This document shows positions 15,704-27,800 of a stretch of DNA of 64,000 bases, one piece after another. Under the pieces are notes generated by a model. That model ran no database searches, was not told the DNA's origin, and saw only the letters and a program-made list of their open reading frames with translations. Origin of the DNA: Nitrospirota bacterium (lineage in GTDB: Bacteria > Nitrospirota > Thermodesulfovibrionia > UBA6902 > DSMQ01); assembly GCA_016208965.1 (NCBI GenBank), contig JACQXB010000006.1, forward strand, positions 58,262 through 122,261, given 5' to 3'. The translations under genes were made by a program, and so were the position numbers. The first letter of the stretch is position 1. Each line of letters starts with the position of its first letter.

Positions 15704-16157
15704 GTGTAAGGAATAAATACAGGAGAATAAATACATACTGTATTTATTTAAGAAATATGGGATGTGTGTGTGTATTTTTATTAAGTTTTCGTACCAAAAG
15801 GAATTTTTGAAATTCCGGCAGTAACTCCAGCCTGTCTTTGGACACTTTCCCCATATTTTACCAACTTGCCTTTTTACCTATATTACCACAAAATACAAAG
15901 TATAGGGCTTATTTTAAAATGATTTTTTCTTTATCTAAAACGTTAAATATGATATATTGTCTTTAATGAGTTCTTGAAATAGGAAGTTGGTATATTAATC
16001 GTTATGCCCATATTGAAAGAAGGCAGTGAAAGAAGGCAGTGACCCAAGGCCTTCAGAACAAGTATGAACTTTACTGCAAGAAAATAACTAAAATTATAAT
16101 TACTAAAATTAACTAAACCTTGATATTATTAATTATGATAAGTTATTATATTTAATA

Positions 16158-16430
16158 ATGTGGCACATCAAAGAACATCGAGATATCAAAAAGACATGTT
16201 CTAAGTTGCCGTTAAACATAGTAAAGAAATACGAACTTTGGAAAAATATCATTTTTCGTCATGGTCCTGAAAAATTAAAAGAATTTCCCGGTTTTCATGA
16301 TGAAAAATTAAAGGGTGTGCGCAGGGGACAACGCTCGTCGCGTTTGAGTGACCAGTATAGGGTCATATATACTGTGGGAAGAGATATTGTTACAGTTTTT
16401 GTTATAGAGATAACGCCACATAAATATTAG
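16158..16430 (+). CDS. higB: HigB-like (RelE-superfamily) toxin
   Basis: 90 aa ending LKGVRRGQRSSRLSDQYRVIYTV...VIEITPHKY. Sits directly upstream of the HTH antitoxin. Confidence 0.7.
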   Translation: MWHIKEHRDIKKTCSKLPLNIVKKYELWKNIIFRHGPEKLKEFPGFHDEKLKGVRRGQRSSRLSDQYRVIYTVGRDIVTVFVIEITPHKY

Positions 16431-16437
16431 GAGGACA

Positions 16438-16716
16438 ATGATGAAATCTCAGCAAAGTGCATTCAGAGCAGCAAAATCTCACGCTGTCTTATCAACAGGT
16501 GAAACTATTAGATTGCTTCGCGAATTGAAAGGCTGGACTCAGGAGGAACTCGCACGTAAATCTGGCATCAGTGCAACTAATATCAGTCTCTTGGAAAATG
16601 ATAGAGTTGAAATTGGCAAAAAGCGTGCTGAGCAGTTTGCAAAAACATTTAATGTTCATCCTGCAATAATTATGTTCCCTGAATACGAAACAAAGGAAAT
16701 TGAAAAGGCGGCATAA
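16438..16716 (+). CDS. higA: HigA-like XRE-family antitoxin
   Basis: 92 aa with HTH TQEELARKSGISATNISLLEN. 7 bp after the toxin. Confidence 0.75.
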   Translation: MMKSQQSAFRAAKSHAVLSTGETIRLLRELKGWTQEELARKSGISATNISLLENDRVEIGKKRAEQFAKTFNVHPAIIMFPEYETKEIEKAA

Positions 16717-16816
16717 CATTTCACTCCACAGGATGCGGCATAACGACCGCCGCACCTGTGAGTTTTAGCGTTAGACAAAGATATTATAAAAAAATATCAA
16801 AGAAAGGATTATTAAA

Positions 16817-17613
16817 ATGCCAAAAAAAGATGTAATTGCTGAAATATTTAAGATATGTAACAAAAAAATAATTTTACGTTCGATAATAATTTAGTAAAAG
16901 ATATTTCAAAAAAATGTAACTTTGGGAATCCGTTTGATGTAACAAAAATTGATAATAAAAATAAATTACCTGATATTTTACTGAAAAATGATTATGCGAT
17001 AATACATTTAGGCAGTGGAAAACATAAGTTTATTAAAGGTATAAAAAAAGTATTTCATAATTTCGAGCCTGTTCAAAAAGAAATTGAATGGACATATAAA
17101 AAAAGTTTATTAAACGAATATAATACAAGCGAATCAAATATATTGTCGGTAGCAAACAATCAGAGAATTTTGCATCATTTCTTATTTGGGAAAGATAAAG
17201 AATTTGATGATATAGAAATTCCACATCGTCCGAAAACCTATTTCCCCCACCGAACAAAAACAAGTCTTGAATATCGTTTTGGTAACGACTCGAAATTGAT
17301 TTTAAAAAATATTCAAATTGAAATAGATTTAACAATTGAATTTGAAGGCACCATCGGCGTATTTGAAGCAAAAAACGGCACACCTGATAGTTTTTCAATT
17401 TATCAAGTTTATCATCCTTTCTTATATTATCATAATATTAAACAAAAGCCTGAGATGAGTCGAAAAGTTAAAGAAATAATCTGTACTTATGTTGTAAAAA
17501 ATATCGAAGAAGAAATAACAAAGTTAAGATTATGGGCTTATACTTTTGAAAACCCAACTGATATTACATCTATTAAATTTATCAAATCGGCATGTTATAT
17601 TTTAAAAAAGTAA
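16817..17613 (+). pseudogene. Putative type II restriction endonuclease, reading frame broken at an A7 tract (16862-16868)
   Basis: ATG at 16817 gives a 25-aa product. The -1 frame is open from 16861 to 17613 and contains a PD...(D/E)xK-like IDLTIEFEG...FEAKNG. Adding one A fuses them into ~265 aa. The MTase follows 12 bp later. Confidence 0.45.
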
Positions 17614-17625
17614 AGAGGTGTTGTA

Positions 17626-18480
17626 ATGCAAGAAATTTTCCAAAATAAAATTTTCAATGAAGATGTAATGAGTGTCTTAAAACGAATGCCAGATAACTAT
17701 GTAGATATGATTTATAGTGATCCCGATTATAATGTCGGTATAAAATATAATGATAAGTCATATACAAAAGATTTTAAAGAATATATTGACTGGTATATCG
17801 AATTAGCCAAAGAATCATTAAGAGTTTTGAAAGATGAAGGTAATTTATTTTTTATTAATTACCCCAAACAAAACGCATATTTACAGGTTAAATTTCTAGA
17901 AGATGTTTGTTATGAAGTTTCTGAATATGTATGGATATATAACACAAATGTCGGTCATTCCCCCAAAAAATTTACAAGGGCACATCGCAGTATTTTGCAT
18001 TGCAGAAAAATAGAAAATAATAAATGGTTTAAAAAAAATGTTGCCGAGCCTTATAAAAATCCAACAGACAAGCGAATATTAGGAAATATTGCAAATGGTT
18101 CAACTGGCAGAATGCCTTATTCATGGTTATATTATAATTTAGTTAAAAATGTCTCACGAGATAAAACCATTCATTCTTGTCAAATACCATTAGGTTTAGT
18201 AGAAAAGTTGATTTTAGCTTCAACGGAAGAAAATGATTTAGTTTTTATACATTTTGGTGGTTCTGGCAGTGAAATAATACTGACAAAGCATTTAAAGAGA
18301 AAATTTGTATCCGCTGAAATAGATAAAATATATCATGATATGATACTTGAACGATTAAAAAGAAATGGCGACATTCCACATAAATATAAATTACAGATAG
18401 AAAGAAAGCAATCCGATAGAATTATTAATAACCAGATGGTTTTTTTTGACGCAAAAGCACAGAAACAAGACAATCTATAA
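17626..18480 (+). CDS. DNA amino-methyltransferase, beta class
   Basis: SDPDYN (motif IV) near the N-terminus and FIHFGGSGSE (motif I) near the C-terminus. Confidence 0.85.
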   Translation: MQEIFQNKIFNEDVMSVLKRMPDNYVDMIYSDPDYNVGIKYNDKSYTKDFKEYIDWYIELAKESLRVLKDEGNLFFINYPKQNAYLQVKFLEDVCYEVSEYVWIYNTNVGHSPKKFTRAHRSILHCRKIENNKWFKKNVAEPYKNPTDKRILGNIANGSTGRMPYSWLYYNLVKNVSRDKTIHSCQIPLGLVEKLILASTEENDLVFIHFGGSGSEIILTKHLKRKFVSAEIDKIYHDMILERLKRNGDIPHKYKLQIERKQSDRIINNQMVFFDAKAQKQDNL

Positions 18481-18646
18481 AGAGAAGTAGACAAACAACG
18501 TCACTTAAAGCAATAAAATCGTCTAACAATTCGCTCCAGCGGACAAAAAAGCTGCGCTTTTTTGCCGCTGAGCTCAAGTGTTAGGCCCTTTCAGAGGGAT
18601 AGAGGATTAGAAAGAAATCAAGCGAAACACATGAAAAGGAGCCAAT

Positions 18647-19645
18647 ATGATATCGAATATTTGGCACCAGATTCCGTTCCCCTTATTGTTGATCTGCCTA
18701 TTTTTCTTTATAGCATCAGGGGTAAGGCGAATTGGTTTAAAAAACAAAGGGACTATGCTATCTACTTTCCTGCTTGCAATTCTTTTATTGTGGATGGTAT
18801 TTCCAATACTTCCTTTTTCTATATTATCAGCACTAATTATCGTAGGCGCATCGTTCGGTTTGGCATTTGCGCATCGTGAACCTGTTCTGAAAATCATTAC
18901 CTTTTTCTTAGTCGCAGACGTCTTATTGATTTCCATTAATCAGCTCATTGAAGTTTCAGGGATCGCACGACGGCTTCCTCCTCTAGAATTTCTCATCAGG
19001 CGTGAACTTGTGTACTTTTATTTCACTGAAATAGTTATAGGTTCACTTTTGGTTGCGGTTGTATTTCTTATAACATTTTTGGTGATAAACTATGTTCTTA
19101 AAGTTGGCGAAAATAAGATACATCACGGTAGCCCATGCTTTTTAGTGACCACTATATTGACTTATGTTATCCAGCAGTTTCTACACCTCGAACATCCAGA
19201 AATGGGTTACAGGGTATTCCCCAATGGGAACATAGTAAAATATACAAACCTCAACACGGGTGATCCAGTAAGTGTAAATGCGCTAGACTCAATATTTAAG
19301 TCGGATGGCAGCATTATAATACCGCAATATGTAAGCATACTATCATATGGCGGCATTTTTTGGACGGTTGTGTTGATACTTGTCGTAGGCCTGAGTATTG
19401 TTTTCGGTGTTGCATTATCGCACAAAGGCGTGTTATCGGAATGGTACCAACGCACTTCACGACTAATCGTATTTGGTGTATTCTATTTTTCCTTTTATCA
19501 CATAATATTGATGAGCTTTCTTTATTCTGATTATGATTTACTTAATGGCCTGATGATGATACTGCTTTCTGCGATTACTATACCTTTTGGTGCTTTAATT
19601 GGATACTCTCTTAATGAAATGGCTATTCACAAAGAAAACGCCTAA
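18647..19645 (+). CDS. Polytopic membrane protein, unknown function, inside the R-M island
   Basis: 332 aa with at least 8 hydrophobic segments. No recognised motif. Confidence 0.5.
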   Translation: MISNIWHQIPFPLLLICLFFFIASGVRRIGLKNKGTMLSTFLLAILLLWMVFPILPFSILSALIIVGASFGLAFAHREPVLKIITFFLVADVLLISINQLIEVSGIARRLPPLEFLIRRELVYFYFTEIVIGSLLVAVVFLITFLVINYVLKVGENKIHHGSPCFLVTTILTYVIQQFLHLEHPEMGYRVFPNGNIVKYTNLNTGDPVSVNALDSIFKSDGSIIIPQYVSILSYGGIFWTVVLILVVGLSIVFGVALSHKGVLSEWYQRTSRLIVFGVFYFSFYHIILMSFLYSDYDLLNGLMMILLSAITIPFGALIGYSLNEMAIHKENA

Positions 19646-19784
19646 CAAAGCAAATGCACTCGGACGGCAAAAAGCGCCGCTCGTTCCTCGCTCTGCCTTT
19701 TGCCGCCAGTGATTTGCAACGTTATGTAAATAAGAATATTCAAAAACAATATTCAAAAACACATCGTTTTCAGTATAATAGTGC

Positions 19785-20429
19785 ATGCCCAACTATTTAA
19801 TAGAAATCTTTGAAGATGAAAAATTAATAGAGCGAATTAAAAAGCGATTACCGCACCTATTTCAACTCGCAGAATTTGAAAGCTCAAGGGCAGGAAAAAT
19901 TGGAATGGAAATTGGCTCTGTTCGTGAGAGAATAATTGTTGCCTTACTCATCTATAAATTCGGTGAAGCTAATGTAGAGTCAGAAATTCCTATCACAGAA
20001 TCAGAAGTGGATGTAAAACTATTTGGTGAGCCTATATCTGTAAAAACAATAACAGGAAATAGCTTCGCTGGTGTTAAACTGATATGGACAGTAGATGCTG
20101 AAAAGGCAAGACAATTTAGTGAAACATATCAGCCCATGTGTGATATGCTATTCGTTCAAATAAACTGGGGGAAAGAAGGAGGATTTTTCTACATTCCTAT
20201 AAGAGTTCAGAAAAGGCTTTTTGATAAAATAGGAAGAAAGAGCTATATAAAGCTTCCCAAAGCAGGAACAAATCCCAGAGGTGTTGAGATTACAAAAGAG
20301 GCATTGATAGCTTTAGTTGAAGACAGCGAGACAAAAGTTATTAAAATAAATTGGCAACGCAGCAAAATAGAATTCAATCCTTACAAGAGATGGGTTGACC
20401 TTTGGAAAGAGGACAAAGATGAAGTCTAA
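19785..20429 (+). CDS. Putative type II restriction endonuclease
   Basis: 214 aa with ESEVDVKLFGEPISVKT, a possible (D/E)xK core. 3' end overlaps the MTase start. Confidence 0.4.
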   Translation: MPNYLIEIFEDEKLIERIKKRLPHLFQLAEFESSRAGKIGMEIGSVRERIIVALLIYKFGEANVESEIPITESEVDVKLFGEPISVKTITGNSFAGVKLIWTVDAEKARQFSETYQPMCDMLFVQINWGKEGGFFYIPIRVQKRLFDKIGRKSYIKLPKAGTNPRGVEITKEALIALVEDSETKVIKINWQRSKIEFNPYKRWVDLWKEDKDEV

Positions 20430-21369
20430 TAGAAATAGAAGAAATGGGACAAAGACAAGTTCTTTTGGTTCTCCAGGGCGAATTGGCCATGATTCAAGTT
20501 CTTTCTATGCGAGCAGATTATATGAAGGACTACCGAAGGAAAATAAAGTTAAGTATCTGGAGAACCCTGTACCAGCAGATTGTTTAGATAAAATCTTTTG
20601 CAAGACAAGTGAAAACATAGAGGAACTGCCTGACAACAGCATACATCTTATGGTTACATCACCGCCCTACAATGTAGGGAAGGTATATGATGAAAATTTA
20701 ACTATGGACGAATACAGAGCATTTTTAAAGCGTGTATGGGCAGAGACAAAAAGGGTACTGGTTCCTGGAGGTAGAGCTTGTATTAATATCGCAAATCTTG
20801 GTAGAAAACCTTATATCCCCCTTCACACCTTTATTATTAAAGATATGCTTGATTTAGAGTTCTTGATGAGGGGAGAAGTGATTTGGAATAAAGCTTCAAG
20901 CGGCAGTCCTTCAACCGCATGGGGTAGTTGGCTTTCAGCACAAAATCCAACACTCAGAGATATTCACGAATACATCTTAATCTTCTCAAAAGATAACTTT
21001 TCAAGAGGTAGCCAGCATCATAAAAAAAGCACAATCACCAGAGATGAATTTCTTGAGTTCACAAAAAGTGTATGGACATTTCCGGCAGAACCAGCCACAA
21101 AAGTTGGACACCCTGCTCCTTTCCCTGTAGAGCTACCGTACAGACTGATTCAACTTTATACATTCAAGGAAGACATTGTTTTAGATCCTTTTGCTGGAAG
21201 CGGTCAGGCAGCGATAGCGGCAATAAAAACAGGAAGACATTATGTTGGATACGATATAAATGAAGAATACGTAAATTTGGCAGAGAGACGAATTAAAGAA
21301 TTCTCCGAAGCCTTTAAATCCCCTAAATTGTTTAAACCAGAAAAACAGGTCTTAATAAGCAATAAATAG
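20419..21369 (+). CDS. DNA amino-methyltransferase, beta class
   Basis: VTSPPYNVG (motif IV) then DPFAGSGQAA (motif I). ATG at 20419; ORF track gives TTG at 20395. Confidence 0.85.
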   Translation: MKSNRNRRNGTKTSSFGSPGRIGHDSSSFYASRLYEGLPKENKVKYLENPVPADCLDKIFCKTSENIEELPDNSIHLMVTSPPYNVGKVYDENLTMDEYRAFLKRVWAETKRVLVPGGRACINIANLGRKPYIPLHTFIIKDMLDLEFLMRGEVIWNKASSGSPSTAWGSWLSAQNPTLRDIHEYILIFSKDNFSRGSQHHKKSTITRDEFLEFTKSVWTFPAEPATKVGHPAPFPVELPYRLIQLYTFKEDIVLDPFAGSGQAAIAAIKTGRHYVGYDINEEYVNLAERRIKEFSEAFKSPKLFKPEKQVLISNK

Positions 21370-21542
21370 AAATAATTACATAACAAAAAAATCCAGCGGA
21401 TGCGATAAACTGCCCCGCTGATTTAGGCCGTTAGACGAAAAAATAAAGAGAATAATTTATGAAGTTAAAATTGGATATAAACAGTTCAAAGTTCAGGATC
21501 AAGTCTTGAAAAATCAGTTTTTATCTTTTCTGCCTCAACTTT

Positions 21543-21719
21543 TTATTCTCCCCCTATTTTCGTTGCCTCGTCAATAAGCATCACAGGAATGCCGTCTTTT
21601 ATATGGTAAAGGAGCTTACACTTATCACAGATAAGACCATTCTGGGATTCAGTTAACCTTATATCTCCCTTGCACTTAGGACATGCTAATATCTCAAGTA
21701 ATTCTTTACTGACAGCCAT
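21543..21719 (-). CDS. Trm112/YcaR-family small zinc-ribbon protein
   Basis: 58 aa MAVSKELLEILACPKCKGDIRL...LICDKCKLLYHIKDGIPVML. Below the ORF-track size cutoff. Confidence 0.6.
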   Translation of the reverse strand: MAVSKELLEILACPKCKGDIRLTESQNGLICDKCKLLYHIKDGIPVMLIDEATKIGGE

Positions 21720-21938
21720 TTTTAGCTCCTTGTTGGATAAGATTCTTTTGAGAGAAGTTTATCTTAAAAATAATGCCCCTGTCAAATTTCAAAGCGGGTC
21801 AATTAACATTTTATTTTTCAATTTGCAATTTTTATAAAATACTGTTAGATTTTACTTGTCTGTATGATTGTTTTTAAAAATCAACCTGCCCTTAAGTTAG
21901 AAAAGTTTTATTTCACAGGGCAAATAAGGAGGTGGAAT

Positions 21939-22502
21939 ATGCTTTTTAGAAAAGAAGAGCCAAAAACTGAGAATACAAAGACGAATGGTTATGAAGAGAA
22001 TTCTGCGAAGGACATCGGTAACCAAAAGATAAATACCATTCTGAAAGGAAGTAAGTTAACAGGCGATATAAATATATCCTGTGATTTAGAATTAAGCGGA
22101 GAGGTTGAGGGCAATATAAATTCTGAAGAAAGTTCCAACATTGTTATTAAAGGAACTTGCAAGGGGAATATAAGGACGCGGGGAGGTAATGTTGACATAG
22201 AAGGAGAATTGATTAACGGAGATATTATTGCAGGCGGTGATGTAAAAGTTTCAGGCAAGTTTAATGGCGGGATGGTAAAGGCAAAAGGCAAGATTTATGT
22301 AAATGGTGAATTCAAAGGCAGATTGGAAGGCAATGAAATTGAGGTAGGATCCAATGCCAGAGGAAAAGGAGAACTTTTTTATAACGAATATATTTCTGTT
22401 TCCAGAGGGGCTCAAATTGAGGCGCAGATAAGTCAAATTAAGGAAGAACCCAAAACAGTAAAAAAACTTCCTGATATAAGAGTAGTAAACATTGAGCATT
22501 GA
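21939..22502 (+). CDS. Bactofilin-family cytoskeletal protein
   Basis: Repetitive G-x-V/I-x-G beta-helix repeats. RBS aaggaggtgg lies before the ATG at 21939. Confidence 0.7.
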   Translation: MLFRKEEPKTENTKTNGYEENSAKDIGNQKINTILKGSKLTGDINISCDLELSGEVEGNINSEESSNIVIKGTCKGNIRTRGGNVDIEGELINGDIIAGGDVKVSGKFNGGMVKAKGKIYVNGEFKGRLEGNEIEVGSNARGKGELFYNEYISVSRGAQIEAQISQIKEEPKTVKKLPDIRVVNIEH

Positions 22503-22542
22503 GAAGCCTTACTTAAAATTTCACAGAGGAGGATATTAATTT

Positions 22543-22869
22543 ATGTCTAATGGTATTACAAATGTTACTCTTGATTCATGGGATGAGGAGGTTCTTCAGT
22601 CGACAGGCATTGTAATGGCTGATTTCTGGGCAACATGGTGCGGACCATGCAAGATGATGTCCCCGGTAGTTGAGGAATTAGCAAAGGAATATGAGGGCAA
22701 GGCAAAATTTGTAAAGGTAAATACAGATGAAAATCCCGAGCTCGCAAGTCGTTATAAAATTACAGGTATACCAACCCTTATATTTTTTAAAGGTGGTAAG
22801 ATGGTAGACCAGGTGGTAGGGGCAGTTCCTAAGGGACACCTTAAGACAAAACTTGACTCCCTTCTTTAA
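22543..22869 (+). CDS. trxA: Thioredoxin
   Basis: WCGPCK active site. Confidence 0.9.
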   Translation: MSNGITNVTLDSWDEEVLQSTGIVMADFWATWCGPCKMMSPVVEELAKEYEGKAKFVKVNTDENPELASRYKITGIPTLIFFKGGKMVDQVVGAVPKGHLKTKLDSLL

Positions 22870-22875
22870 TAAGAA

Positions 22876-23796
22876 ATGCTTTTTGATGTCATAATCATCG
22901 GTGGAGGTCCTGCAGGGCTTACTGCAGGCATTTATACCTCACGGGCACGACTCAAAAGTCTCCTTATTGAGAGGGCATTCCCTGGTGGTCAGGTAATGAC
23001 CACTGAATGGATAGAAAATTATCCTGGTTTTGATGAGGGTATCTCAGGGGTTGAACTCTCCCAGAAGATGGAAAGACAGGCAAAGAAATTTGGGCTTGAG
23101 ATAATACAGGGTTCTGTAGCGCGGCTCTCCTTATACGATAAAATAAAAAAAATAGAACTTGACGAAGGTCAGATATACGAGTCAAAGACATTGATAGTAG
23201 CCACAGGGGCAAACCCAATGCATCTTAAGGTAGAAGGTGAAGACAGATACAGGGGCAGAGGGGTTTCATACTGCGCTACCTGTGATGGAGCGTTCTTCAA
23301 AGATAAAAAGATTGCAGTCATTGGAGGTGGAAATTCCGCTCTGCAGGAGGCAATATTTCTTACAAAATTTGCAGAGATGGTTTATATAGTGCACAGGAGA
23401 GGTGAATTCAGGGCAACAAAGATACTGCAGGAAAGGGCATTTGCAAATCCTCATATAAAAGTTATATGGAATTCTGTTGCGGAAAAGATAGAAGGTGAGG
23501 ATACAGTGAATACATTGTTTTTAAGAAATGTAAAGACAAAAGAATCCACGAGACTCGAGGTTCAGGGAGTATTTATCTATGTAGGTTACAATCCCAACAC
23601 AGAGTTTCTTAAAGGGCTTGTTTATCTCAATGAGGAGAATTACATAGTTACTGACGAGAAGATGTCTGCTTCTTTGCCCGGGGTTTTCGCAGCAGGCGAT
23701 GCAAGAGTAAAGTTTCTAAAACAGATTGCCACTGCTGTTGGAGATGGAGCTATGGCAGCCATGGCAGCAGAAAAATATATAGAGGAGAATTTCTAA
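22876..23796 (+). CDS. trxB: Thioredoxin-disulfide reductase
   Basis: GGGPAG and CATCDG motifs. Confidence 0.9.
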   Translation: MLFDVIIIGGGPAGLTAGIYTSRARLKSLLIERAFPGGQVMTTEWIENYPGFDEGISGVELSQKMERQAKKFGLEIIQGSVARLSLYDKIKKIELDEGQIYESKTLIVATGANPMHLKVEGEDRYRGRGVSYCATCDGAFFKDKKIAVIGGGNSALQEAIFLTKFAEMVYIVHRRGEFRATKILQERAFANPHIKVIWNSVAEKIEGEDTVNTLFLRNVKTKESTRLEVQGVFIYVGYNPNTEFLKGLVYLNEENYIVTDEKMSASLPGVFAAGDARVKFLKQIATAVGDGAMAAMAAEKYIEENF

Positions 23797-23798
23797 GA

Positions 23799-23973
23799 TA
23801 ATATCTGAACGTATCTGCCTTCAAAAACCTTAAAAGGCAACATAAATTATATCGATGCCATATTGCAAAGAAGTTAGAAGTTTTTTCTTATAAGGTTAAG
23901 GGAATGCCAATTGCAATATGGCATGTTTAAAGGAGTTGCCCTAAGGCTTTCTCAGGTAGATACGTTCAGATAG
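23799..23973. repeat. Nested inverted-repeat structure between trxB and ffh
   Basis: Outer IR tatctgaacgtatctgc / gtagatacgttcagata. Inner IR tgccatattgcaa / ttgcaatatggca. Confidence 0.6.
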
Positions 23974-23986
23974 TTTAAGGAAGATT

Positions 23987-25360
23987 ATGTTTGAAGCATT
24001 ATCGGAAAAATTAGGAAGCATATTTAAAAAATTAAAAGGGCGAGGATTATTAAGGGAAGAAGACCTTACCGCTGCCCTTAAAGAGATCAAAATAGCCCTT
24101 CTTGAGGCTGATGTGAACTTCAAGGTTGTAAAAGACTTTATAGAGAGGGTAAAGGCAAGGGCTATTGGTAAAGAAGTAATTGAAAGCATTACACCCGGGC
24201 ATCAGGTTGTAAAGATTGTCCATGACGAACTCTGCAGCCTCATGGGCGGCGAAGACAATTTATCTTTAAGCCAGAGAAAGATCCATCTCTCCCCTAATCC
24301 ACCTACTGTTATTATGCTCGTTGGTCTTCACGGCTCAGGCAAGACAACTACCGCTGCAAAGCTTGCAAAAGGCTTTAAAAAGGATGGACGCAGACCTCTG
24401 CTCGTTGCCATAGACACAGCAAGGCCTGCTGCTATAGAGCAGCTTATCTCTTTAGGGTCGCAAATAAATGTGCCTGTTTACGGAACAAAGGCTGGAGACA
24501 GCCCAGTGAGGGTTTGCTCGGATGCTATTAAAAAGGCTCATTCCGAAGGCTGGGATGTTGTTATCCTTGATACAGCAGGCAGACTTCATATAGATGAGGA
24601 GTTAATGAAGGAACTGGATGACGTAAAGGCAGCGGCAAATCCAAAGGAAATCCTGCTTGTAGCAGATGCTATGACAGGGCAGGATGCTGTAAATATTGCA
24701 AAGTCTTTTAATGATAGGCTTAACATAGGAGGTGTTATCCTTACCAAGATGGATGGTGATGCACGTGGTGGGGCAGCGCTTTCAATTGTTGCTGCTACAG
24801 GAAAGCCCATAAAGTTTATAGGTGTTGGGGAGAAGATTGATTTACTTGAGCCATTTCATCCTGAGAGGATGGCGTCCAGAATACTGGAGATGGGTGATAT
24901 TGTAAGCCTTGTGGAAAAGGCACAAGAGGCAATAGGCATGGAAGATGCCATTAAATTGCAGAAAAAACTAAAAGAAGACAGGTTTACATTTGAAGACCTG
25001 AAAGATCAGATAAAGCAGATTAAGAAAATGGGATCTCTTGAAAATCTCTTTGGTATGATCCCCGGATTAGGTAAGCACATATCCCGAAGTGTCGGGACGG
25101 TAGATGAGAAGGAATTTATTAAGATTGAGGCGATAATCAATTCCATGACTAAAAAGGAAAGGGAAAGTTATGCTATAATTAATGGCAGTCGCAAGAGGAG
25201 AATAGCCCTTGGAAGCGGGACTACTGTAGCTGATGTGAATAGACTTATTAAACAGTATCTTGAAATGAAAAAGATGCTCAGGATGTTTAAGGGTGGTAAA
25301 GGTCCCGGGCTTAATAAGTTTAAGTTTCCTGATTTAAATTTTTTCCGGGGGCGTAGTTGA
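23987..25360 (+). CDS. ffh: Signal recognition particle protein Ffh
   Basis: GLHGSGKTT, DTAGR and the M-domain. Confidence 0.95.
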   Translation: MFEALSEKLGSIFKKLKGRGLLREEDLTAALKEIKIALLEADVNFKVVKDFIERVKARAIGKEVIESITPGHQVVKIVHDELCSLMGGEDNLSLSQRKIHLSPNPPTVIMLVGLHGSGKTTTAAKLAKGFKKDGRRPLLVAIDTARPAAIEQLISLGSQINVPVYGTKAGDSPVRVCSDAIKKAHSEGWDVVILDTAGRLHIDEELMKELDDVKAAANPKEILLVADAMTGQDAVNIAKSFNDRLNIGGVILTKMDGDARGGAALSIVAATGKPIKFIGVGEKIDLLEPFHPERMASRILEMGDIVSLVEKAQEAIGMEDAIKLQKKLKEDRFTFEDLKDQIKQIKKMGSLENLFGMIPGLGKHISRSVGTVDEKEFIKIEAIINSMTKKERESYAIINGSRKRRIALGSGTTVADVNRLIKQYLEMKKMLRMFKGGKGPGLNKFKFPDLNFFRGRS

Positions 25361-25451
25361 CAAAAATACTTACTATCTTAATTATAGTTATACTTCTACT
25401 TGCTGTTTATCGTATAATAATGAAAAAATAGAATCTTAAGGGGGTAATAAT

Positions 25452-25688
25452 TTGGTTAAGATTAGACTTGCGCGTAGGGGAGCAAAGAAAAAGCCATTTT
25501 ACAGGGTAATTGTATGTGACTCAAGGGAAAGAAGAGATGGCCCATTTCTGGAAATCATAGGGACCTACAATCCATTGACAGAGCCTTCTGATATAAAGGT
25601 AAACACAGAAAGAGCTAAATATTGGCTTAGTTGTGGAGCACAACCAACTTCTCAGGTGAGAAAACTTTTGAAGCTGGCTGGCTTATAA
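25452..25688 (+). CDS. rpsP: 30S ribosomal protein S16
   Basis: [21 protein letters not shown]. Confidence 0.9.
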
Positions 25689-25720
25689 AAGGTCAGCAAA
25701 ATTCTTACGGAGGTGGATAT

Positions 25721-25951
25721 ATGAAAGGGTTAATCGAGCAAATGGCAAAGGCTTTAGTTGATAAGCCAGAGGAGGTTTCTGTTGCTGAGGTGGCAGGGGA
25801 GAGGACAACTGTTTACGAGTTGAAGGTTGCAATGAGTGATCTCGGTAAAGTTATTGGGAAGCAGGGGAAAACTGCAAGGGCAATGAGGTCAATTCTGGGT
25901 GCTGCAGGGGCTAAACTCGGTAAGCACTGTGTTCTCGAGATATTAGAATAG
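25721..25951 (+). CDS. KH-domain RNA-binding protein (YlqC-like)
   Basis: [19 protein letters not shown] ggaggtgg lies before the ATG at 25721. Confidence 0.7.
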
Positions 25952-26685
25952 TGAAATGTGACATCCTGACGCTTTTTCCTGATATAGTTAATGCCTATCT
26001 TAAAGAAAGTATATTAAAGAGGGCACAGGAGGGAAAGCTTCTTGAGGTAAAGATTTATAATCTTAGGGACTTTGCCGCAGGAAGACATAAAGTACTTGAT
26101 GATTATCCTTTTGGCGGTGGCCCTGGCATGGTGATTAAGCCCGAGCCTCTTTTTAAAGCAATTGAGCATATTAAAAAAGACGGCTTGCCAAGGAGGGTAA
26201 TCCTCCTAAGTCCACAGGGGAAAACATTTACTCAATCAATGGCTGAGGAGTTCTCCCGAGAAAAACAGAGAGTGGTATTTATATGCGGAAGATATGAGGG
26301 TATTGATGAAAGAGTAAGGCTAAGGCTTGTGAATGAGGAGGTCTCAATTGGGGATTATGTACTGACAGGTGGAGAGTTAGGCGCCCTTGTTATAATTGAT
26401 TCAGCAGTAAGGCTTATCCCTGGCGCCTTAGGAGACGAGAGGTCAGCAGATGAGGAATCTTTCTCGTGGGGACTACTTGATTATCCCCAGTATACAAGAC
26501 CAAGGGAGTTTCAGGGGATGAGGGTTCCGGATGTGCTTATATCCGGGAATCACAAAGAGATATGGCTCTGGCGAAGGAAAGAGGCTTTAAGGAAGACAAT
26601 AAAGATGAGGCCAGACCTTATTAAGAAGATCAAGCTTGCAGACATCGATAAAAAATTAATCTCAGAGATTGAGGGGGAAGAATAA
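25951..26685 (+). CDS. trmD: tRNA (guanine37-N1)-methyltransferase
   Basis: GTG start. DILTLFP and [10 protein letters not shown] motifs. Confidence 0.9.
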
Positions 26686-26686
26686 A

Positions 26687-27040
26687 ATGGATTCCATAAG
26701 GATTATAGAAGATAGTTTTAAAAAAGAAGGCCCTTCCTTCCGTGTAGGAGATGCAGTGAGGGTAAATGTCAAGATTATTGAGGGGGATAAGGAGAGGCTT
26801 CAAACATTTGAAGGCATTGTTATATCCCGTAGAGGCAGTGGAACGCGGGAGACCTTCACCTTAAGAAAGATATCTTATGGTGTTGGGGTTGAAAGAATAT
26901 TCCCACTTTATTCACCAATGATAGAGGGTTTAGAGGTTATTAAACAGGGTGATGTAAGGAGGGCTAAGCTATATTACCTGCGCGGGAAGAAGGGGAAGGC
27001 AGCAAAGGTAAAGGAAAAATCTTTAACAACAACTGCATAA
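26687..27040 (+). CDS. rplS: 50S ribosomal protein L19
   Basis: FRVGDAV and typical L19 sequence. Confidence 0.9.
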
Positions 27041-27061
27041 CCCCGTTATTATTTCTCTACG

Positions 27062-27696
27062 ATGAAAAAATCCGCAGAGATTACCCTGTAATCACAGGCA
27101 TTGATGAAGCAGGCAGGGGCTCTTTAGCAGGTCCTGTTGTTGCAGGAGCAGTTATCCTTCCTTCAGGGCTTATCATTAACGGGCTCAAGGACTCAAAACA
27201 AGTTCCTGAGAATAAGCGCAGAGGACTCTTCTGGAAAATTGTATCTAACGCTGTTAGCATAGGTATTGGCATTATAGATGCTGGTATTGTAGATAGGATA
27301 AATATACTTAGAGCCACAAGGCTTGCCATGGAAGAGGCTGTTAGAGATCTGAAACAAGACCCTGATATTCTATTAATTGACGCCCTTAATCTTTATGATA
27401 TTAAAATCCCGCAGAAATCCATTATCAAAGGGGAATCTGTAAGCGCCTCAATAGCAGCAGCCTCTATTATCGCAAAGGTTGTCAGGGATGACATAATGCT
27501 CAGGTATCATGAAAAATACCCGATTTATAATTTTAAAGTGCATAAAGGATATTGTACAGAAGAGCATGTAAGATTAATAAGCATACATGGCCCATGCCCT
27601 ATTCACAGAAAGAGTTTTAGAAAGGTAATGGATCTACCACTACCATTTGAAATATGTGAAACACACATGGTGACAAGTCCGCACAAAGGAGAATGA
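27062..27696 (+). CDS. rnhB: Ribonuclease HII, apparent frameshift in the A6 tract at 27065-27070
   Basis: ATG at 27062 reads MKKSAEITL*. The adjacent frame reads (D)EKIRRDYPVITGIDEAGRGSLAGPVV through to 27696. One extra A restores a single ORF. Confidence 0.7.
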
Positions 27697-27714
27697 AAAC
27701 AGTCAGCGAAACAT

Positions 27715-27800
27715 CTGTCCTAATCGTCATTCCCCGACTCGATCGGGGAATCCAGAGTTTTATCCTTCCTGGATTCTCTGGTCAAGCCAGAGAATGACAG
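27715..27800. repeat. GTCATTCC...GGAATGAC palindromic element
   Basis: cgtcattccccgactcgatcggggaatccag...ctggattctctggtcaagccagagaatgacagc. Confidence 0.7.

What the first reader, a model, noticed from the sequence alone, without database searches (positions are those of the whole stretch)
16158..21369. Second defence island: higBA, two type II R-M pairs and an unknown polytopic membrane protein
The block is AT-rich and lies between tyrS and the bactofilin gene. Its gene order is higB-higA, then REase(frameshifted)-MTase, then a 332-aa multi-TM protein of unknown function, then REase-MTase. The membrane protein at 18647-19645 has no recognisable domain. It sits between two R-M systems, so it could be an Abi-like effector.
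Basis: partly seen in the sequence, partly recalled or inferred. Interest (0 to 1): 0.55.

Follow-up and report, generated by a model that had tools for sequence, protein, structure and literature searches.

The report
Integron cassette array, not defence operon
The block is a row of four independently mobile integron gene cassettes (a toxin-antitoxin pair, two restriction-modification pairs, one unknown membrane protein), so the membrane protein's place between restriction systems comes from cassette stacking and says little about its function.

Summary
Each of the four modules ends in a canonical integron attC recombination site (16711-16776, 18521-18586, 19640-19727, 21378-21436), all on the + strand.

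A covariance model built only from these four sites finds nothing else in the 64-kb window. In about 50 kb of four class 1 integron regions, all six of its matches fall at expected attC positions: five strong (aadA1 twice, aadA2, orfD, dfrA14) and one weak (blaOXA-2). No integrase gene lies in the window. [quoted passage not shown]

The 332-aa membrane protein is a cassette on its own. Its family is tiny: 7 relatives among 1.84 billion representative proteins. In four other loci the relatives also lie in attC-bearing stretches, and none has a restriction-modification neighbour. One copy is split by IS21 and one is fused to ankyrin repeats. It has no domain, fold or defence-model match.

The first endonuclease is inactivated by an A8-to-A7 deletion, shown against a 92%-identical intact homologue.

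This is a new member of a known kind. The membrane protein's function is unresolved, and an anti-phage role is possible only at roughly the base rate for unknown cassettes.

The parts
15942..16007 (+). Undetermined left junction of the array. It holds two lone GTTRRRY-like motifs (GTTAAAT 15942-15948, GTTATGC 16001-16007) with no attC hairpin upstream.
   Evidence: Motif scan. Neither covariance model finds an attC or attI-like site here. Logan contigs break at 15826 and 15970.
16158..16430 (+). Cassette 1, gene 1: RelE/YoeB-superfamily toxin (90 aa)
   Evidence: PHROG RelE-like toxin E 5e-9. NCBIfam RelE_StbE 22.4 bits, below its cut-off. Promoter-like site at 16120-16149.
16438..16716 (+). 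Cassette 1, gene 2: HTH_3 (XRE-type) antitoxin. Its stop codon lies inside the R'' box of attC1.
   Evidence: Pfam HTH_3 E 1e-13. Sequence shown.
16711..16776 (+). attC1 (66 bp): R'' GCATAAC, L'' CTC[C]ACAGG, L' CCTGTGAG, R' GTTAGAC
   Evidence: R1 80.9 bits. Bottom-strand DNA hairpin with a bulged G, z -3.9.
16818..17613 (+). Cassette 2, gene 1: DUF6996+DUF6997 putative type II endonuclease, inactivated by a 1-nt deletion in the A run at 16862-16868 (A7 here, A8 in the intact homologue)
   Evidence: PADLOC REase_II E 2.5e-7.
17626..18480 (+). Cassette 2, gene 2: beta-class N6/N4 DNA methyltransferase (284 aa), intact
   Evidence: Pfam N6_N4_Mtase E 3e-30. PADLOC MTase_II 377 bits.
18521..18586 (+). 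attC2 (66 bp): R'' GTCTAAC, AATTCGCTC[C]AGCGGAC ... GCCGCTGAGCTCAAGT, R' GTTAGGC. Very close to the aadA1 attC.
   Evidence: R1 80.2 bits. Fold z -5.8. Alignment with aadA1 and aadA2 attC.
18647..19645 (+). Cassette 3 (18581-19721), only gene: 332-aa membrane protein with nine predicted helices and unknown function. AAGGAG lies 6-11 nt upstream of the ATG. No promoter-like site lies within the cassette upstream of the gene.
19640..19727 (+). attC3 (88 bp): R'' GCCTAAC overlapping the stop codon of the membrane gene, R' GTTATGT
   Evidence: R1 53 bits and R2 58 bits. Fold z -2.9.
19785..20429 (+). Cassette 4, gene 1: ThaI-family type II restriction endonuclease (214 aa)
   Evidence: PF15514 E 2.6e-99, full length. 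PADLOC REase_II 307 bits. Promoter-like site at 19752-19779.
20395..21369 (+). Cassette 4, gene 2: N6/N4 DNA methyltransferase with an SPPY motif. The start is probably ATG 20419, overlapping the endonuclease gene.
   Evidence: Pfam N6_N4_Mtase E 2e-46. PADLOC MTase_II 456 bits. Gene call.
21378..21436 (+). attC4 (59 bp): R'' ACATAAC, ATC[C]AGCGG / CCGCTGAT, R' GTTAGAC. This is the right end of the array.
   Evidence: R1 66.5 bits. Fold z -1.9.

Best explanation
The block from about 15.95 to 21.44 kb is an integron gene-cassette array with no local integrase (a CALIN). It lies between tyrS and trm112 in a Nitrospirae MAG.

What is shown:
- There are four co-oriented modules: toxin-antitoxin; broken endonuclease plus methyltransferase; membrane protein alone; ThaI-type endonuclease plus methyltransferase.
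- Each module ends in an attC site with the canonical layout: R'' (xxxTAAC), L'' with one extra C, a variable loop, L', and R' (GTTRRRY).
- The sites cross-recognise textbook attC sites of class 1 integrons.

What is inferred from established integron biology:
- Each cassette was captured separately, by integrase-mediated recombination of the folded bottom strand of its attC.
- The order of cassettes therefore reflects insertion history and not operon logic.
- An integrase acting in trans could still excise or shuffle the cassettes.
- The toxin-antitoxin cassette and the R-M cassettes are addictive and may stabilise the array.
- The toxin-antitoxin and ThaI cassettes appear to carry their own promoters. 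The membrane gene probably depends on read-through from upstream.

Cassette 2 has decayed to a solitary methyltransferase through an A8-to-A7 frameshift in its endonuclease gene.

The membrane protein is a cassette of unknown function from a very small, horizontally scattered, dispensable family. My best guess for it, with low confidence (about 0.3), is a membrane-embedded protein with a periplasm-facing His/Glu/Asp site. That site would be formed by E128, H180-x-E182-H183, H285 and D295, all predicted near the outer ends of helices 5, 6 and 8. Such a site suggests a metal-dependent enzyme or a sensor acting at the cell envelope. The cytoplasmic C-terminus would contact a protein partner, since it is fused to ankyrin repeats in one relative.
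For: attC sites:
- The four sites align with an invariant TAAC...GG...CC..TGA...GTTA framework.
- Their bottom strands fold into hairpins with a bulged G. The z-scores are -3.9, -5.8, -2.9 and -1.9.
- On an 8-site alignment that includes aadA1, aadA2 and sites from two other loci, 95.7% of cells are paired, against 31-45% when the partners are slid. Eleven of 18 pairs show compensatory changes.
- Model R1, built only from the four window sites, finds nothing else at E<1 in the 64-kb window apart from the reverse-strand echo of the palindromic attC2 itself.
- In R100 and pFBAOT6, R1 has exactly one hit each: the attC of aadA1 (E 2e-8) and of aadA2 (E 1e-6), on the correct strand directly after the stop codon.
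- In R46 and pHCM1, R1 hits only the aadA1, orfD and dfrA14 attC positions, plus a weak blaOXA-2 hit.

No integrase: tblastn with IntI1 gives nothing better than E 3.5 in the window. That IntI1 query was checked as 100% identical to annotated intI1.

Mixed origin: cassette GC differs (0.37, 0.28, 0.39, 0.37), which fits independent origins. The cassette 2 module is 91.6% identical in DNA to a module in an unrelated MAG. That similarity stops short of both attC sites.

Membrane protein as a cassette gene:
- Relatives are followed by attC sites in L086 (E 0.012 with R1) and L088 (E 0.058 with R1).
- A further attC lies in the array in L089, two genes upstream of the relative (E 0.005 with R2).
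- By eye, L085 has GTTAGGC before the gene and GCCTAAC... after it. L086 has GCCTAAC...GTTAGGC just upstream of the gene.

The CALIN definition and the known enrichment of toxin-antitoxin and R-M genes in cassettes come from PMC4889954 and bioRxiv 10.1101/2024.07.02.601686.
Against: - The left end of the array has no recognisable attC or attI, so the first cassette's boundary is undefined.
- Two R'' boxes (GCATAAC, ACATAAC) and one R' box (GTTATGT) depart from the strict consensus by one base each.
- No integrase was found, and recombination activity is untested.
- The same R-M module occurs without attC sites in L099. These genes therefore also move by other routes.
- One relative of the membrane protein (P0002, L083) lies in a mobile-element region with no attC site.
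- For the membrane protein's function there is no positive evidence beyond sequence conservation and predicted topology. The structure model is of low confidence (pLDDT 58).
Confidence: 0.88

Rival explanations
1. This is a conventional defence island in which the membrane protein works with the flanking R-M systems as an abortive-infection or effector component.
For: - It is flanked by two R-M pairs and a toxin-antitoxin pair on the same strand with short gaps.
- No terminator-like site separates the genes.
- Membrane proteins serve as suicide effectors in several defence systems, and some integron cassettes with transmembrane proteins are anti-phage (bioRxiv 10.1101/2024.07.02.601686).
Against: - attC sites bound the gene on both sides, so it is a separate mobile unit.
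- None of the five other loci with a relative has an R-M neighbour.
- It has no PADLOC, Pfam Abi/CPBP or PHROG match.
- One of the two flanking endonucleases is already a pseudogene.
Confidence: 0.05
2. The membrane protein is a stand-alone anti-phage or superinfection-exclusion cassette. In this reading it is independent of the R-M pairs and would be a new single-gene defence family.
For: - About 18% of tested unknown-function cassettes of the V. cholerae chromosomal integron had anti-phage activity (bioRxiv 10.1101/2024.07.02.601686).
- The other three cassettes in this array all carry defence or addiction cargo.
- The family has a patchy, horizontally transferred and frequently disrupted distribution. 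That pattern is typical of accessory defence genes.
Against: - There is no homology to any known defence protein.
- It is absent from the phage, plasmid and viral-contig collections searched.
- At 332 aa with nine helices and a conserved His/Glu motif, it looks more like an enzyme or transporter than like a simple pore-forming effector.
- The base rate is the only quantitative support.
Confidence: 0.13
3. The four palindromic elements are not attC sites. They would be ordinary intergenic hairpins, such as terminators or a REP/MITE-like repeat, that happen to follow the modules.
For: - They are GC-rich imperfect palindromes placed after stop codons, as terminators are.
- attC4 folds weakly (z -1.9, with 10 of 200 shuffles folding as well).
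- No integrase is present.
Against: - None is followed by a T run, and none was called by the terminator scan.
- All share the TAAC / GTTA core boxes at the outer ends and a bulged base at the same helix position.
- A model built from them retrieves known attC sites and nothing else in about 50 kb of class 1 integron regions.
- They occur nowhere else in the 64-kb window.
Confidence: 0.03

Closest known systems
[quoted passage not shown] 2016, PMC4889954; Neron et al. 2022, PMC9024848)
   Same: - Four attC sites lie on one strand, 1.1-1.8 kb apart.
- The ORFs are co-oriented and each module ends at an attC.
- No integrase lies nearby.
- The array is small: published CALINs average about 5-6 attC sites.
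- Most of the cargo is unknown or not antibiotic resistance.
   Different: - The host is a Nitrospirae MAG. Only two CALINs were reported for the whole Nitrospira phylum in RefSeq complete genomes.
- The left boundary has no attC or attI.
- Three of the four cassettes are two-gene cassettes of 0.8-1.8 kb, larger than typical cassettes.
Sedentary chromosomal integrons as stores of defence and toxin-antitoxin cassettes (for example the Vibrio cholerae superintegron; bioRxiv 10.1101/2024.07.02.601686)
   Same: - Toxin-antitoxin cassettes carry their own promoter.
- R-M and other defence cargo is packed into cassettes.
- Many cassettes have unknown function, including transmembrane proteins.
   Different: - There is no intI, attI or Pc platform here.
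- There are only four cassettes.
- The attC sites are heterogeneous in length (59-88 bp).
- No anti-phage activity has been tested.
attC sites of class 1 integron cassettes (aadA1, aadA2, dfrA14)
   Same: - attC2 shares the motif GTCTAACAATTCG-TC-AGC-GAC ... CTCAAG-GTTAG with the aadA1 and aadA2 sites.
- It has the same 60-70 bp size and the same bulged position.
   Different: - The central loop and stem sequences differ.
- The cargo genes are unrelated to antibiotic resistance.
ThaI-family (PF15514) type II restriction-modification systems
   Same: The endonuclease matches the family profile over its full length (E 2.6e-99). An overlapping amino-methyltransferase gene follows it.
   Different: - Here the pair is packaged as an integron cassette.
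- The specificity (CGCG for ThaI itself, from my own knowledge) was not tested.
- CGCG is only mildly depleted in the window (observed/expected 0.62).

Membership tests
Integron cassette array / CALIN | At least two attC sites on the same strand, less than 4 kb apart | tested here: met
   Four sites on the + strand start at 16711, 18521, 19640 and 21378, with spacings of 1810, 1119 and 1738 bp. The definition is from PMC4889954.
Integron cassette array / CALIN | attC architecture: R'' (RYYYAAC), L'', variable loop, L', R' (GTTRRRY); an imperfect palindrome with an extrahelical base on the bottom strand | tested here: met
   - TAAC and GTTA are invariant in all four sites.
- The R'' box is canonical in two of four sites, and the R' box in three of four. 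Each of the others is one base off.
- A G is bulged at the same helix position in the folds.
- 95.7% of cells are paired, and 11 of 18 pairs show compensatory changes.
Integron cassette array / CALIN | The sites are recognisably the same kind of element as experimentally known attC sites | tested here: met
   The window-only model R1 hits the aadA1, aadA2, orfD and dfrA14 attC sites, plus a weak blaOXA-2 hit. It hits nothing else in four class 1 integron regions, about 50 kb on both strands.
Integron cassette array / CALIN | ORFs are co-oriented and each cassette ends with its attC just after the stop codon | tested here: met
   Two stop codons lie inside the R'' box (antitoxin, membrane gene). 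The other two lie 8 and 40 nt upstream of it.
Integron cassette array / CALIN | No integron integrase nearby | tested here: met
   tblastn with IntI1 finds nothing better than E 3.5 anywhere in the 64-kb window. The rest of the 167-kb contig and the rest of the genome were not available.
Integron cassette array / CALIN | The sites are substrates for integrase-mediated recombination | not testable with these tools
   This needs an attC x attI recombination assay.
Complete integron | An intI gene with an adjacent attI site and Pc promoter upstream of the first cassette | tested here: not met
   tyrS lies directly upstream. There is no tyrosine recombinase in the window. No attC or attI-like hit lies in 15704-16157.
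HigBA toxin-antitoxin | A HigB-family RelE-fold toxin encoded upstream of an HTH-XRE antitoxin | tested here: inconclusive
   The gene order and the HTH_3 antitoxin fit. The toxin matches a RelE-like PHROG (E 5e-9). Pfam HigB-like (14.6 bits) and YoeB (15.7 bits) are far below their 27-bit cut-offs. PDB hits are all weak.
Type II restriction-modification (ThaI family) | A ThaI-family endonuclease with an adjacent DNA methyltransferase | tested here: met
   PF15514 matches positions 1-203 of 203, E 2.6e-99. PADLOC REase_II scores 307 bits and MTase_II 456 bits.
Type II restriction-modification (DUF6996/DUF6997 pair) | An intact endonuclease plus a methyltransferase | tested here: not met
   The endonuclease gene is frameshifted (A7 against A8 in the intact homologue). 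Its identity as an endonuclease rests only on a weak PADLOC REase_II hit (E 2.5e-7) and on conserved pairing with the methyltransferase.
Abi-like / known defence effector (for the membrane protein) | Homology to a known abortive-infection or defence protein, or conserved linkage to defence genes | tested here: not met
   There is no PADLOC, Pfam (including the CPBP/Abi family), NCBIfam or PHROG hit. No R-M or other defence neighbour was seen in the five other loci with relatives; L088 and L083 do carry toxin-type genes (PemK, SymE) nearby. Foldseek finds nothing at E<0.8.

The most novel reading that the evidence does not exclude
The 332-aa protein founds a new family of cassette-borne polytopic membrane proteins. 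It carries a periplasm-facing H-x-E-H / H / D site that confers phage resistance or envelope modification on its own. If so, it would be a new single-gene defence or surface-remodelling function that moves between phyla as an integron cassette.
Probability: 0.13. Interest if true: 0.6.

Novelty: new member of a known kind. Interest (0 to 1): 0.35.

Why it matters
- It corrects the logic used to annotate the unknown gene. In a cassette array, adjacency is not evidence of shared function, so guilt by association with the R-M pairs should not be applied.
- It adds a clear attC array to a phylum where integron elements are barely documented: two CALINs in RefSeq Nitrospira. Its attC sites are strikingly close to those of clinical class 1 cassettes.
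- It identifies a very small protein family (8 representatives among 1.84 billion) that recurs in attC-bearing cassette arrays in unrelated bacteria. That makes it a well-defined candidate for the cassette-screening approaches now used to find anti-phage and other adaptive functions.
- It gives a clean example of one R-M module (92% identical) present as an attC-bounded cassette in one genome. In another genome the same module is a bare insertion in the fab operon.

Tried and rejected
- **Empty-site test.** I fetched 80 tyrS loci from GTDB genomes. None shares any neighbour with the window, so no empty site could be shown.
- **Remote homology for the membrane protein.**
  - Pfam, NCBIfam, PADLOC and PHROGs on the protein, and Pfam on all family members, gave nothing.
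  - A profile search of PDB sequences gave only chance hits.
  - The word-indexed profile search added no members.
- **Structure.** The single-sequence model had pLDDT 54. The model from an 8-sequence alignment had pLDDT 58 and pTM 0.57. Foldseek against PDB and BFVD found no match at E<0.8.
- **More relatives.** Scans of JGI metagenome contigs and IMG/VR found none. The first attempts failed because the alignment was too divergent. tblastn against plasmids and phages found nothing.
- **Conserved partner genes.** An all-against-all BLAST of neighbours found none, and Pfam on those neighbours found nothing.
- **Left-end attC or attI.** Neither model finds one. An inverted repeat at 15854-15997 does not fit the attC layout.
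- **Other features.** There are no tRNA genes in the window and no Rfam hits in 13-24 kb. No flanking direct repeats suggest a classical integrative element.
- **attC sites around the 92%-identical R-M module in L099.** None was found.
- **Spurious ORF.** I rejected this because relatives in DNA of very different base composition keep the same motifs.

Full report
**Observation**

- The first gene (16158-16430) encodes a 90-aa RelE/YoeB-superfamily toxin. It matches a RelE-like PHROG at E 5e-9. The RelE_StbE, YoeB and HigB models are all below their cut-offs.
- The second gene (16438-16716) encodes an HTH_3 antitoxin.
- The next gene is truly frameshifted. An ATG at 16818 opens a frame that dies after 25 codons. 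The rest of the protein continues in another frame to 17613.
  - Adding one A to the A7 run at 16862-16868 restores a 265-aa protein that covers the DUF6996 and DUF6997 profiles end to end.
  - There are 747 intact relatives, the closest 92% identical and exactly 265 aa long. Its DNA has A8 where the window has A7.
  - An independent Logan assembly of the same population is identical to window 15970-27754, so the frameshift is not an artefact of one assembler.
- The two methyltransferases and the ThaI-family endonuclease (PF15514, E 2.6e-99) are clear.
- The 332-aa protein has no hit in Pfam, NCBIfam, PADLOC or PHROGs.

There are small corrections. A trm112 gene lies between the block and the bactofilin gene. 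Only the second module (GC 0.28) and the intergenic DNA are markedly AT-rich. The other modules (0.37-0.39) resemble the rest of the window (0.39).

**What organises the block**

A repeat search showed a 20-nt motif directly after the antitoxin, the first methyltransferase and the second methyltransferase (family D2). Reading the four inter-module spacers showed that each contains an imperfect palindrome bounded by xxxTAAC on the left and GTTRRRY on the right. The four sites are:

| Site | Coordinates | R'' | R' |
|---|---|---|---|
| attC1 | 16711-16776 | GCATAAC | GTTAGAC |
| attC2 | 18521-18586 | GTCTAAC | GTTAGGC |
| attC3 | 19640-19727 | GCCTAAC | GTTATGT |
| attC4 | 21378-21436 | ACATAAC | GTTAGAC |

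This is the architecture of integron attC sites.
- The left inner arm carries one extra C (for example GCTC[C]AGCGG against GCCGCTGAGC). In the folded bottom strand this becomes a bulged G at the same helix position.
- The bottom strands fold better than shuffled controls, with z -3.9, -5.8, -2.9 and -1.9.

**Is this more than chance or circular reasoning?**

I built a covariance model (R1) from the four window sites only.
- In the 64-kb window, with filters off, it finds those four sites at 53-81 bits. Apart from the reverse-strand echo of the palindromic attC2 itself, nothing else scores E<1.
- For an independent test I fetched four class 1 integron regions. I located them with an IntI1 protein query, which proved 100% identical to annotated intI1.
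  - In R100 and pFBAOT6, R1 gives exactly one hit each. These are the attC sites of aadA1 (48.6 bits, E 2e-8) and aadA2 (40.8 bits, E 1e-6). Both are on the cassette strand and start at the stop codon.
  - In R46 and pHCM1 its only hits are at the attC positions of aadA1, orfD and dfrA14, plus a weak hit after blaOXA-2.
  - In total there are six hits in about 50 kb on both strands. All are at expected attC positions, and there are no false positives.
- An 8-site alignment combined the window sites, aadA1, aadA2 and two sites from other loci. In it 95.7% of cells are paired, against 31-45% with slid partners. Eleven of 18 pairs carry compensatory changes.

I consider the attC identification secure.

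**Integrase and classification**

tblastn with IntI1 finds nothing better than E 3.5 in the window, so the window has no tyrosine recombinase at all. tyrS lies directly upstream and trm112 directly downstream. By the IntegronFinder definition this is a CALIN: at least two attC sites less than 4 kb apart on one strand, with no nearby intI (PMC4889954).

The left boundary is not defined. Only lone GTTRRRY-like motifs occur (15942, 16001), and neither model finds an attC or attI there.

The cassette limits at G|TT are:

| Cassette | Coordinates | Length |
|---|---|---|
| 2 | 16771-18580 | 1810 bp |
| 3 | 18581-19721 | 1141 bp |
| 4 | 19722-21430 | 1709 bp |

**The membrane protein**

An exhaustive phmmer search of 1.84 billion representative proteins found only seven relatives. 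They share 24-50% identity with the window protein and the same motifs:
- RIPP-E...DLVYF-FTEI
- TY--QQ-LH-EHPE-GY
- GG-FWT
- YF--YH-IL-SF--D---LN

The gene is therefore real. Their contexts are informative.

| Relative | Locus | Context |
|---|---|---|
| P0008 | L086 | GCCTAAC...GTTAGGC just upstream by eye; an attC directly downstream (R1 E 0.012) |
| P0003 | L088 | Followed by an attC in DNA whose attC segment is 74% GC (R1 E 0.058) |
| P0005 | L085, same sampling project as the window | Preceded by GTTAGGC; followed by GCCTAACAAATAAATCCAG at the contig end |
| P0007 | L089 | Lies in an array with an attC two genes upstream (R2 E 0.005) |
| P0007 + P0004 | L092, L093 | The two halves of one gene split by an IS21 element (IstB and IstA fragments at the broken ends) |
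| P0002 | L083 | Carries C-terminal ankyrin repeats; lies among ArdC, RecT and SymE genes of a mobile element, with no attC |

No neighbour is shared between loci, and none is an R-M gene. In L089 a short ankyrin ORF lies immediately upstream of the relative.

The family is therefore a recurrent, dispensable, horizontally scattered integron cassette. Its position between two R-M pairs in this window is an accident of stacking.

**What the membrane protein might do**

Structure prediction with the 8-sequence alignment gave nine helices. Confidence was moderate only for residues 130-180 and 236-332 (pLDDT 58, pTM 0.57). Foldseek found nothing in PDB or BFVD.

Counting Lys and Arg in the loops favours an N-out, C-in topology. 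This agrees with the ankyrin fusion sitting at the C-terminus. Under that topology the conserved polar residues E128, H180, E182, H183, H285 and D295 all sit near the outer ends of helices 5, 6 and 8 or in outer loops.

I therefore guess, with low confidence, at a periplasm-facing metal-binding or catalytic site. That would mean an envelope-acting enzyme or a sensor. An anti-phage role cannot be excluded. The only quantitative guide is that about 18% of tested unknown cassettes of the V. cholerae integron were anti-phage (bioRxiv 10.1101/2024.07.02.601686).

**Other points on mechanism**

- Promoter-like sites precede the toxin gene (16120-16149) and the ThaI gene (19752-19779). None lies between attC2 and the membrane gene. 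That gene has a good AAGGAG ribosome-binding site, so its expression probably depends on read-through. The promoter scan is not statistically enriched (29 sites against 25.7 expected), so this is only a suggestion.
- The cassette 2 R-M module is 91.6% identical in DNA over window 16803-18447 to a module in an unrelated MAG (L099). There it sits with a PemK toxin-antitoxin pair between fabD and fabG, and has no attC sites. The similarity stops short of both attC sites in the window. The same module therefore exists both as a cassette and as a bare insertion.

**Comparison and novelty**

CALINs, toxin-antitoxin cassettes and defence cargo in integrons are well described (PMC4889954; PMC9024848; bioRxiv 10.1101/2024.07.02.601686). 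This is a new member of that kind, in a phylum with very few reported elements: two CALINs in RefSeq Nitrospira.

The membrane-protein family is uncharacterised and very rare. That is the only part with real discovery potential. My evidence does not raise it above the base rate for unknown cassettes.

**Verdict**

The cargo is defence-type, but the inference about the membrane protein is undermined.
- Best explanation: a four-cassette integron array without an integrase, confidence 0.88.
- Interest: 0.35.

Noticed in passing
window 15827-15969: The Logan contig with tyrS ends at 15826 and is seen identically in 5 samples. The Logan contig with the island starts at 15970 and is seen in 2 samples. 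Neither covers the 143 bp between them. This suggests population variation or a graph branch at the left edge of the array.
   Followed up: partly
L099 3548-5906 (GCA_030018795.1, JASEHA010000044.1): A PemK toxin-antitoxin pair and the same DUF6996/6997 endonuclease-methyltransferase module lie between fabD and fabG of the conserved fatty-acid synthesis operon. The module is 91.6% identical in DNA to window 16803-18447. The endonuclease is intact here (A8), and there are no attC sites.
   Followed up: yes
L092 83-1128 and L093 2-855 (JGI 3300056620 / 3300056967): Relatives P0007 (N-terminal half) and P0004 (C-terminal half) appear to be one gene split by an IS21-family element. An IstB fragment abuts one half and an IstA fragment abuts the other.
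   Followed up: partly
L083 10001-11353 and L089 2993-3169: The family is linked to ankyrin repeats twice. They are fused to the C-terminus in P0002, and a 58-aa ankyrin ORF lies directly upstream of P0007.
   Followed up: partly
whole window: The 4-bp palindromes CTAG (observed/expected 0.08), GATC (0.27) and GGCC (0.28) are strongly avoided. CGCG, the site of ThaI itself, is only mildly depleted (0.62). Only two CGCG sites lie in the island, both in the toxin-antitoxin cassette.
   Followed up: partly
window 16015-16042: A tandem duplication GAAAGAAGGCAGT GAAAGAAGGCAGT lies in the spacer upstream of the toxin gene. Its significance is unknown.
   Followed up: no
L088 1411-2330: Relative P0003 lacks the N-terminal ~65 residues. 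A 76-aa ORF ends exactly where it starts, which may indicate a second disrupted copy of the family.
   Followed up: no
L086 1-4217 and L089 1-3880: Both contigs look like cassette arrays made of small co-oriented ORFs with no Pfam match. They are further unknown-function cassettes from groundwater and other metagenomes.
   Followed up: partly
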